Shown: positions 13,312 to 14,096 of the stretch, in pieces
Numbering within the stretch: position 1 is the stretch's first letter
Layout: the number at the start of each line of letters is the position of its first letter
UHGV virus genome: UHGV-1351569
Direction: 5' to 3' (one strand)
DNA from: a virus
Length of the DNA: 64,000 nt
Position numbers and translations under genes: made by a program
Notes under the pieces: model-generated
Seen by the model: only the letters and a program-made list of their open reading frames with translations
Databases searched by the model: none
What the model was told of the DNA's origin: nothing

Positions 13312-13893
13312 ATGATTAAATTGGTATTCGCTTATTCTCCAACTAAAACGGTCGAAGGCTTTAATGAATTAGCATTCGGTTTAGGTGATGGTTTACCATG
13401 GGGACGAGTTAAAAAGGACCTCCAGAATTTTAAAGCTCGTACTGAAGGCACAATTATGATTATGGGTGCTAAAACGTTCCAGTCATTGCCTACATTACTT
13501 CCTGGTCGTAGTCATATTGTAGTGTGTGACCTTGCGCGTGATTATCCTGTAACTAAAGACGGTGATTTAGCACATTTCTATATTACTTGGGAGCAATATA
13601 TAACTTACATTTCTGGCGGCGAAATTCAAGTTTCAAGTCCTAATGCACCATTCGAGACTATGCTTGATCAGAATTCCAAAGTAAGTGTAATTGGCGGGCC
13701 TGCTCTGTTATATGCTGCATTACCTTATGCGGATGAAGTAGTTGTTTCTCGCATCGTTAAAAGGCATCGTGTTAATTCAACGGTTCAATTAGATGCAAGT
13801 TTTCTTGATGATATAAGCAAGCGTGAAATGGTTGAAACCCATTGGTATAAAATAGATGAAGTAACAACCCTTACGGAATCAGTGTATAAATGA
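13312..13893 (+). CDS. frd: dihydrofolate reductase
   Basis: 193 aa [46 protein letters not shown]...; T4 DHFR length and sequence. Confidence 0.95.
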
Positions 13894-14096
13894 GCAATAA
13901 ATTAAAAATTAAGGATGTTCCTAATGCTATGGCCCTTTTTATTTGTCGGCAGATGCATCAAGGGCCTATGACACCAAAACAATATCTTAAAGGTGAGCGT
14001 TCTTTAGGATTTACTCGCAAAGCAAAACAAATGGTTAAATTAGGATATAAGCCTAACTTTGCCAAATATCCTTCTACATATTCTTGGATGAACTAA
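13890..14096 (+). CDS. hypothetical protein inserted between frd and td
   Basis: 68 aa [34 protein letters not shown]...; ATG overlaps frd stop (ATGA) and its TAA overlaps the td ATG (TAATG). Confidence 0.6.

What the first reader, a model, noticed from the sequence alone, without database searches (positions are those of the whole stretch)
13890..14096. 68-codon ORF wedged between frd and td by overlapping stop/start codons
As I recall, the T4 frd stop overlaps the td start directly. Here a 68 aa ORF ([34 protein letters not shown]...) is inserted, its ATG overlapping the frd stop (ATGA) and its TAA overlapping the td ATG (TAATG). Such coupling implies co-translation with the folate and thymidylate enzymes.
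Basis: partly seen in the sequence, partly recalled or inferred. Interest (0 to 1): 0.45.

Follow-up and report, generated by a model that had tools for sequence, protein, structure and literature searches.

The report
Small accessory gene between frd and td
The 68-codon reading frame between the dihydrofolate reductase and thymidylate synthase genes is a real, conserved small phage gene of unknown function. It is already annotated as a hypothetical protein in more than a hundred T4-like genomes, and phage T4 has most likely lost it rather than this phage gaining it.

Summary
An ATG-started 68-codon ORF lies at 13890-14096. Its ATG overlaps the frd stop (ATGA) and its TAA overlaps the td ATG (TAATG). 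T4 has frd and td directly overlapped, and the difference is exactly 206 nt between two AATGA repeats.

The ORF is a genuine gene: dN/dS is 0.07-0.3 across homologues of 39-97% identity. It matches PHROG family phrog_9550 (unknown function) over its full length.

It is not new. About 135 GenBank T4-like records carry it, mostly annotated "hypothetical protein". It sits immediately upstream of td, with overlapping stop and start, in five T4-like lineages. In three of them it follows a second small gene (phrog_1928), which alone occupies this junction in most Tequatroviruses.

T4's compact junction is therefore the minority state, and probably the derived one. The gene was also exchanged recently between Tequatrovirus and Dhakavirus (dS 0.05-0.14, against 0.7-2.1 in the flanking genes).

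The protein is 7.9 kDa with net charge about +10.6. It is predicted as three helices plus an aromatic tail. It has no Pfam match, no PDB sequence match and no significant fold match.

The likely role is a dispensable binding protein made early in infection. Stop/start overlaps are common in this genome and do not imply a folate-related function.

The parts
13312..13893 (+). frd (dihydrofolate reductase, 193 aa). Its TGA stop overlaps the ORF68 start.
   Evidence: ORF. (phrog_316, E 4e-57). (99% identical to T4 Frd).
13890..14096 (+). ORF68: small basic accessory gene of family phrog_9550. 68 aa, 7.9 kDa, pI 10.3, net charge about +10.6. Predicted helices at residues 13-24, 29-39 and 43-50, followed by an aromatic C-terminal tail.
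   Evidence: phrog_9550, E 3e-45, full length. (AlphaFold models). (dN/dS). (charge).
13889..13893 (+). Left copy of the AATGA direct repeat, containing the frd stop and the ORF68 start.
   Evidence: Deleting the 206 nt between the two AATGA copies reproduces the T4 junction TATAAATGAAACAATACC.
14095..14099 (+). Right copy of the AATGA direct repeat, containing the ORF68 stop and the td start.
   Evidence: The same exact 206-nt indel separates JS98 from QL01 in Dhakavirus.
14086..14091 (+). GGATGA, a Shine-Dalgarno-like site for td lying inside the last codons of ORF68 (Trp66-Met67-Asn68).
   Evidence: Read directly from the sequence. TGGATGRAC precedes TAATG in the window, JS98, JK08, Marfa and 4S. 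Function as a ribosome-binding site is inferred.
14096..14956 (+). td (thymidylate synthase, 286 aa, intronless). Its start overlaps the ORF68 stop and its stop overlaps the nrdA.2 start.
   Evidence: phrog_160, E 3e-123..
13888..14151 (+). Island of about 98% nucleotide identity to JS98-group Dhakaviruses, inside flanks that are 72-78% identical. The left edge falls exactly at the ORF68 start.
   Evidence: dS is 0.05-0.14 for ORF68, 0.70-1.08 for frd and 1.84-2.09 for td. The first 55 nt of td are also shared by QL01, which lacks ORF68, so ORF68 itself is the differential block.

Best explanation
ORF68 is a genuine, dispensable small accessory gene of T4-like phages (family phrog_9550). It is transcribed on the frd-td messenger.

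Translation: it is probably translated by termination-reinitiation at the frd stop (ATGA). It has taken over the initiation context that td uses in T4. In turn it hands ribosomes to td through TAATG, with a GGATGA site inside its own last codons.

Product: a 7.9-kDa, strongly basic, three-helix protein with a conserved aromatic tail and no catalytic motif. It most likely acts by binding. The partner is probably a nucleic acid or an acidic host factor shared by enterobacteria, in host takeover or counter-defence, rather than anything in folate chemistry.

History: the gene is an old resident of the interval just upstream of td in Tevenvirinae, often behind a second small gene (phrog_1928). It has been lost precisely, between AATGA microhomologies, in T4 and in some Dhakaviruses. 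It has also been passed recently between Tequatrovirus and Dhakavirus by recombination.

Shown here: the gene is real, conserved and under purifying selection; its distribution; the indel anatomy; the recent exchange; the absence of known domains. Inferred: translational coupling, a binding function, and the direction of the events.
For: Coding and selection:
- dN/dS is 0.07-0.33.
- There is a full-length match to phrog_9550.
- The family alignment has invariant or near-invariant N3, K4, K6, P11, R20, G40, M48, L51-G52-Y53 and P55.

Not an RNA element, and one transcription unit:
- There is no credible Rfam match (one hit at 14 bits against a gathering score of 84, E 0.12), and the RNA fold z-score is -0.22.
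- There is no promoter-like or terminator-like site between frd and td.

Junctions:
- ATGA and TAATG are present.
- td overlaps the ORF68 stop in the window, JS98, JK08, Marfa, CIP9 and 4S.
- The Phapecoctavirus copy has its own GGAGG site instead.

Distribution:
- About 135 records carry the gene at 90% identity or more, out of about 600 that have the frd-td region.
- About 363 records instead carry a 115-aa phrog_1928 ORF.
- 7 of 60 sampled records have the T4-type direct junction.
- In Marfa, CIP9 and 4S the order is frd, then phrog_1928 (1-2 copies), then ORF68, then td.

T4:
- T4 has no homologue in the 150 kb searched by profile.
- T4's frd.1-frd spacer aligns with the first ~65 nt of a gene that is intact in the window, which suggests T4 is the deleted form in that interval too.

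Recent exchange:
- There is an identity island with a strong dS contrast against the flanks.
- The same exact indel is found inside Dhakavirus.

Protein:
- pI is 10.3 and net charge about +10.6; the four other family members computed are +7.7 to +13.6.
- Two AlphaFold models, from differently ordered and partly different alignments, give the same three-helix topology at pLDDT 83 and 80.
- Homologues elsewhere sit in blocks of small genes in large, apparently lytic phages of enterobacteria, near helicase and ligase genes.
Against: - No experiment or dataset here shows that the protein is made.
- The Shine-Dalgarno match upstream of ORF68 is poor, so expression rests on inferred coupling.
- Conserved adjacency to td in five lineages could still reflect a td-related role.
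- The gene is absent from some Tevenvirinae genera, so 'ancestral and lost' cannot be fully separated from 'repeatedly transferred'.
Confidence: 0.6

Rival explanations
1. ORF68 is a dedicated partner or regulator of thymidylate synthase. It might be a small subunit or adaptor that ties Td into the phage dNTP-synthesis complex, or a basic RNA-binding protein that sets td translation. In either case the coupling would be functionally meaningful.
For: The gene is always immediately upstream of td, with overlapping stop and start, in Tequatrovirus, Dhakavirus, Marfavirus, Kanagawavirus and the 4S lineage, while the upstream neighbour varies. Its last codons supply td's Shine-Dalgarno-like GGATGA.
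Against: T4, and roughly three quarters of Tequatrovirus records, make Td without it. T4 has no homologue in the 150 kb searched. Homologues in Phapecoctavirus and metagenomic phages are not next to td. Stop/start overlaps are frequent here and also join unrelated genes such as nrdA and mobE (PMC2988022).
Confidence: 0.12
2. ORF68 is a recently inserted, self-spreading cassette that targets the frd/td ATGA junction, and T4 represents the ancestral empty site.
For: The boundaries are exact at AATGA repeats. The same indel occurs in two genera. The copies in Tequatrovirus and Dhakavirus are 97-98% identical in nucleotides while the flanks are saturated at synonymous sites. A different cassette (phrog_1928) occupies the very same junction, flanked by AAATGAAA repeats.
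Against: 68 aa with no nuclease, recombinase or other catalytic motif and no conserved acidic residues. Purifying selection acts on the protein. Syntenic copies in three more distant lineages have diverged about as much as td. It lacks the promoter plus stem-loop flanks of the known modular cassettes of T4-type phages. Selection for intact frd and td would by itself make only exact boundaries survive.
Confidence: 0.12
3. The ORF is a chance open frame, an untranslated spacer or a structured RNA between frd and td.
For: It is short, has no domain hit, and has only a weak Shine-Dalgarno match upstream.
Against: It stays open and conserved down to 39% identity in unrelated phage groups, with indels in whole codons. 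dN/dS is 0.07-0.33. There is a full-length PHROG match. There is no credible Rfam match (one 14-bit hit, E 0.12, gathering score 84), and folding energy is no better than shuffles.
Confidence: 0.02

Closest known systems
T4 frd/td junction (direct ATGA overlap; reference record NC_000866)
   Same: Same flanking genes in the same order, with the same initiation context TATAAATGA at the end of frd.
   Different: In T4 that ATG starts td. Here it starts ORF68, and td is moved 206 nt downstream behind a new TAATG overlap. T4 also carries the td intron with I-TevI, which the window lacks. JK08 has both ORF68 and the intron, so the two are independent.
PHROG family phrog_9550 (unknown function), annotated 'hypothetical protein' in fPS-2, SHFML-26, ACG-C40, Marfa, CIP9, 4S and others
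   Same: Full-length HMM match at E 3e-45. The position upstream of td is the same in T4-like phages.
   Different: Nothing material: the window's copy is an ordinary member, 97-98% identical to many deposited ones. In JS98, JS10 and Paracelsus the ORF is present but not annotated.
phrog_1928 ORF (about 115 aa), the alternative occupant of the frd-td junction in T2, AR1, RB3, RB18 and most Tequatroviruses
   Same: Same insertion point, also flanked by a short direct repeat that includes the ATGA (AAATGAAA). It is also of unknown function, and it co-resides with ORF68 in Marfa, CIP9 and 4S.
   Different: Unrelated sequence. It starts about 20 nt after the frd stop and is followed by a spacer of about 45 nt carrying its own promoter-like and Shine-Dalgarno-like sites before td, rather than being overlapped at both ends.
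mobE and other free-standing genes wedged between conserved T4 genes by overlapping stop/start codons (Edgell, Gibb and Belfort 2010, PMC2988022)
   Same: An optional gene sits between two conserved nucleotide-metabolism genes, joined by the same UAAUGA arrangement. It has no initiation region of its own, and coupling is inferred.
   Different: mobE is an HNH endonuclease that drives its own spread. ORF68 has no nuclease motif and is too small to be one.

Membership tests
phrog_9550 (phage protein family of unknown function) | Significant full-length match to the family profile | tested here: met
   E 3.3e-45, residues 1-68 against profile positions 1-68 of 68.
phrog_9550 (phage protein family of unknown function) | Homologues confined to phages and conserved as a coding sequence | tested here: met
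   only phage records or phage-like contigs, with 14 representatives among 1.84 billion proteins; dN/dS 0.07-0.33.
Translationally coupled gene pair (termination-reinitiation) | Stop codon of the upstream gene overlaps or abuts the start codon of the downstream gene on one mRNA | tested here: met
   ATGA (frd/ORF68) and TAATG (ORF68/td); no promoter-like or terminator-like site between them.
Translationally coupled gene pair (termination-reinitiation) | Downstream translation depends on upstream translation | not testable with these tools
   Needs reporter fusions with upstream start or stop mutations, or ribosome profiling.
Helix-turn-helix DNA-binding domain | Three-helix core in which helices 2 and 3 form the HTH | tested here: inconclusive
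   three helices are predicted (13-24, 29-39, 43-50) with a basic third helix (RKAKQMVK), but geometry was not compared with a reference HTH.
Helix-turn-helix DNA-binding domain | Significant sequence or structure match to a known HTH family | tested here: not met
Free-standing homing endonuclease (seg GIY-YIG / mob HNH) | GIY-YIG or HNH catalytic domain | tested here: not met
   no such Pfam hit in any of 27 family members; no conserved acidic, His or Cys catalytic residues. The protein is 68 aa.
Free-standing homing endonuclease (seg GIY-YIG / mob HNH) | Patchy presence between conserved genes with co-converted flanks | tested here: met
   This shows a resemblance in population pattern only, not membership.
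PeSL modular cassettes of T4-type hyperplastic regions (Arbiol, Comeau and Krisch 2010; recalled from memory) | ORF flanked by early-promoter plus stem-loop elements | tested here: not met
   no promoter-like or terminator-like site within or beside 13890-14096; no stable structure.
Known anti-phage defence components (PADLOC) | Match to a defence-system protein model | tested here: not met
   no hit for the window protein. One stray Cas6 hit (E 0.002) in 1 of 24 members.

The most novel reading that the evidence does not exclude
ORF68 is a host-directed effector, either a counter-defence or a host-takeover protein. It would bind a nucleic acid or an acidic factor common to Escherichia, Shigella, Yersinia, Klebsiella, Enterobacter and Serratia. 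Its near-identical copies in Tequatrovirus and Dhakavirus would then record a recent selective spread. The ATGA/TAATGA stop-start overlaps would serve as microhomology joints that let whole small genes be gained or lost seamlessly without disturbing frd and td expression.
Probability: 0.2. Interest if true: 0.5.

Novelty: already known. Interest (0 to 1): 0.2.

Why it matters
As it stands, this is an ordinary example of the small optional genes that distinguish T4-like phages from one another. It corrects the impression that the T4 arrangement is the norm: most T-even genomes carry an extra gene at the frd-td junction.

The modest value lies in three points:
- It is a very clean natural case of seamless gene loss or gain at overlapping stop/start codons. 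The same 206-nt indel is seen in two genera.
- There is evidence that the gene moved between genera far more recently than its neighbours diverged, which suggests it is useful to the phage.
- It is a compact (68 aa), highly basic, fold-orphan protein family restricted to large, apparently lytic enterobacterial phages. That makes it a reasonable candidate for host-interaction screens.

Tried and rejected
Domain and structure searches that found nothing:
- Pfam, on the window protein and on all 27 family members.
- NCBIfam and PADLOC.
- PDB sequences with a family profile.
- Foldseek against PDB and BFVD, which returned only the family's own member.
- The AFDB library was not available.

Homology and paralogue searches:
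- An exhaustive HMMER search of 1.84 billion representatives found only 14 family members and no larger or annotated relatives.
- A third, wider profile search added only a few more small orphan proteins.
- A paralogue search by profile found nothing else in the window.
- The same kind of search over 150 kb of T4 found nothing. T4 99.9-119 kb, a structural-gene region, was not searched.

RNA and context:
- RNA-element hypothesis: no credible Rfam match (one 14-bit hit, E 0.12, far below its gathering score) and no excess folding energy.
- Linkage to the td intron: rejected, because JK08 has both ORF68 and the I-TevI intron.
- A remnant of ORF68 in the spacer of phrog_1928-type junctions: not significant, with 763 of 1000 shuffles scoring as well.
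- A constant gene neighbour among distant homologues: none found.

Literature:
- Searches for the frd-td junction ORF or for the PHROG identifiers returned nothing relevant.
- One search failed on a term that was too short.

Full report
**1. The observation**

The window contains an ATG-started ORF at 13890..14096 on the + strand.

- frd runs 13312..13893, so its TGA overlaps the ORF's ATG as ATGA.
- td runs 14096..14956 (286 aa, uninterrupted), so the ORF's TAA overlaps td's ATG as TAATG.
In NC_000866, frd (145109-145690) and td (ending at 145112) overlap directly by four bases.
- Aligning the two junctions shows a single clean 206-nt difference.
- That block is bounded by the pentanucleotide AATGA at 13889-13893 and 14095-14099. 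Removing the 206 nt between the copies reproduces T4's TATAAATGAAACAATACC.

**2. It is a real gene**

- tblastn finds the ORF in 238 phage records.
- Protein searches find it in metagenomic phage contigs down to about 30% identity.
- It is kept open throughout, length differences are whole codons, and a set of residues is invariant or nearly so: N3, K4, K6, P11, R20, G40, M48, L51-G52-Y53 and P55.
- Nei-Gojobori estimates give dN/dS of 0.07-0.33.
- The region gives no credible Rfam match. The single hit scores 14 bits against a gathering score of 84 (E 0.12). As RNA it folds no better than shuffled sequence, z = -0.22.
- No promoter-like or terminator-like site separates it from frd or td.
- A chance ORF, a spacer and an RNA element are therefore rejected.

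**3. It is already catalogued**

- The protein matches PHROG family phrog_9550 (unknown function) end to end at E 3e-45.
- Of about 600 phage records that match the frd-td region, 136 contain the whole 601-nt query including the ORF at about 97% identity.
- 135 records encode the protein at 90% identity or more.
- These include Yersinia phages fPS-2, fPS-65 and fPS-90, Shigella phages SHFML-26, pSs-1 and Sf21, and Escherichia phage ACG-C40. In nearly all of them it is annotated 'hypothetical protein'.
- In JS98, JS10 and Paracelsus it is present but not annotated.

**4. What the junction looks like across T4-like phages**

Tequatrovirus genomes show three states.

- About 363 records carry an unrelated 115-aa ORF of family phrog_1928, on an insert of about 416 nt. 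These include T2, AR1, RB3 and RB18. The insert is flanked by AAATGAAA repeats and has its own promoter-like and Shine-Dalgarno-like spacer before td.
- About 135 records carry ORF68.
- A minority have the T4-type direct overlap. This was 7 of 60 evenly sampled records, several of them T4 itself.

In more distant lineages both genes are present in tandem.

- The order is frd, then phrog_1928 (one or two copies), then ORF68, then td.
- This holds in Klebsiella phage Marfa, Enterobacter phage CIP9 (Kanagawavirus) and Serratia phage 4S.
- There ORF68 has diverged about as much as td: 59-79% against 78-79% amino-acid identity, and 66-79% against 70-76% nucleotide identity.
- In every T4-like lineage examined, td's start overlaps the ORF68 stop, as TAATG or as GTGA in CIP9.

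The simplest reading is that ORF68 is an old resident of the position just upstream of td, and that T4's compact junction is a deletion. Two further results fit this reading.

- A family profile finds no homologue in the 150 kb of T4 that was searched.
- T4's 71-nt frd.1-frd spacer aligns with the first ~65 nt of a DUF7247 gene that is intact in the window. This points to a deletion in T4 in that interval as well.

**5. Recent exchange between genera**

The window was compared with JS98-group Dhakaviruses.

| Segment | Nucleotide identity | dS |
|---|---|---|
| ORF68 | 97-98% | 0.05-0.14 |
| frd | 71-86% by segment (77-78% in the last 100 nt) | 0.70-1.08 |
| td | 72-79% beyond its first 100 nt | 1.84-2.09 |

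- The left edge of the identity island is exactly the ORF68 start.
- Within Dhakavirus, JS98 and QL01 differ by the same exact 206-nt indel.
- QL01 shares the conserved first 55 nt of td, so the differential block is ORF68 itself.
- ORF68 has therefore moved between the two genera much more recently than its neighbours diverged.
- The likely route is homologous pairing in the td 5' end and a microhomology (AAATGA) junction on the frd side. This step is inferred.
- Exact boundaries are also what selection for intact frd and td would leave, so they do not by themselves show a targeting mechanism.
- The gene is independent of the td intron: JK08 has ORF68 together with the I-TevI intron.

**6. 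The protein**

- It is 7.9 kDa, with pI 10.3 and net charge about +10.6. The four other family members computed range from +7.7 to +13.6.
- AlphaFold2 with a 27-sequence alignment predicts three helices (13-24, 29-39, 43-50) and an extended aromatic C-terminal tail packed against the N-terminal segment, at mean pLDDT 82.7.
- A second model was built on a Phapecoctavirus homologue, using a differently ordered and partly different alignment. It has the same topology at pLDDT 80.4.
- There are no conserved acidic or metal-binding residues, so an enzyme, and in particular a homing nuclease, is unlikely.
- The family is tiny, with 14 representatives among 1.84 billion proteins.
- It is confined to large, apparently lytic phages. 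Outside the T4-like group, homologues sit in runs of small genes with no constant neighbour and not next to td. The Phapecoctavirus copy has its own GGAGG site.

**7. How it most likely works**

- Shown: one transcription unit, and overlapping stop/start codons at both ends.
- Shown: ORF68 uses the very initiation context (TATAAATGA) that td uses in T4.
- Shown: a GGATGA lies 4 nt before td's ATG, inside ORF68's last codons.
- Inferred: ribosomes finishing frd reinitiate on ORF68, and ribosomes finishing ORF68 reinitiate on td. The small protein would then be made in the prereplicative period together with the nucleotide-metabolism enzymes.
- Inferred from size, charge, aromatic tail, lack of motifs, patchy distribution, recent lateral spread and restriction to enterobacterial phages: it acts by binding a nucleic acid or an acidic host factor, as a dispensable host-takeover or counter-defence accessory.
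- I put about 0.9 on 'real, expressed accessory gene' and about 0.35 on this functional class.

**8. Rival explanations**

- A td-specific partner or regulator remains possible, given the conserved adjacency. Against it: most T-evens, including T4, lack the gene, and homologues elsewhere are not next to td. Stop/start overlaps are also routine in this genome and join even unrelated genes such as nrdA and mobE (PMC2988022).
- A self-spreading cassette fits the population pattern. Against it: the gene has no plausible catalytic machinery, and its syntenic copies in distant lineages have diverged about as much as td.

**9. Verdict**

It is wrong in direction, because T4 most likely lost the gene, and it over-reads the coupling. 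The feature is an already catalogued small accessory gene of unknown function, so it is ordinary, and I score interest at 0.2. The tidy indel anatomy and the inter-genus exchange are the only points of wider note.

Noticed in passing
window 12711-13309: Two ORFs lie between frd.1 (12458-12700, DUF5417) and frd that T4 lacks: 12711-13070 (119 aa, DUF7247) and 13055-13309 (84 aa, no Pfam family). T4's 71-nt frd.1-frd spacer aligns with the first ~65 nt of the DUF7247 ORF, so T4 appears to carry a deletion remnant there.
   Followed up: partly
L008-L011 about 4580-4995 (IMG/VR T4-like contigs); also T2, AR1, RB3, RB18: An alternative occupant of the same frd/td junction. It is a 115-aa ORF (phrog_1928, unknown function) on an insert of about 416 nt flanked by AAATGAAA repeats. 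A promoter-like TATAAT and an AAGG Shine-Dalgarno-like site precede td. It is the commonest state in Tequatrovirus (about 363 records).
   Followed up: partly
window 17751-18392: A 213-aa HNH plus NUMOD3 homing-endonuclease-like ORF lies between nrdA and nrdB, overlapping both neighbours at its start and stop. T4 has the 141-aa mobE at this position. nrdB here (18389-19567) has no intron.
   Followed up: no
window 19571-20005: A 144-aa GTG-started ORF with a GIY-YIG domain hit (E 5e-6) lies directly after nrdB. It may be a seg-type endonuclease or a truncated remnant of one.
   Followed up: no
L012 about 893-1100 (IMG/VR contig 2938479101_000007): This copy of ORF68 is frameshifted in an A-run (CCAAAAAAAATATC against CCAAAACAATATC in the window). 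It is either a pseudogene or a homopolymer sequencing error.
   Followed up: no
P0018 and P0034 (IME339 and Klebsiella phage EI annotations); JS98, JS10 and Paracelsus records: The annotation of this gene is inconsistent across GenBank. Some records call a 42-aa truncated version, and others do not call the ORF at all although it is intact.
   Followed up: no
window 11500-19600: No phage record matches this 8-kb stretch at more than about 95% overall. The best matches (T6, Ge15, the slur phages) are about 94-95% identical and in 3-4 pieces. The window therefore comes from a mosaic Tequatrovirus not represented as a near-identical genome in the collection.
   Followed up: no
window 11597-11887: The Frd.3 homologue (PF05798) also gives a weak, sub-threshold hit to a RelB-like antitoxin fold (E 6.5e-4, 19.9 bits against a cutoff of 27).
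   Followed up: no
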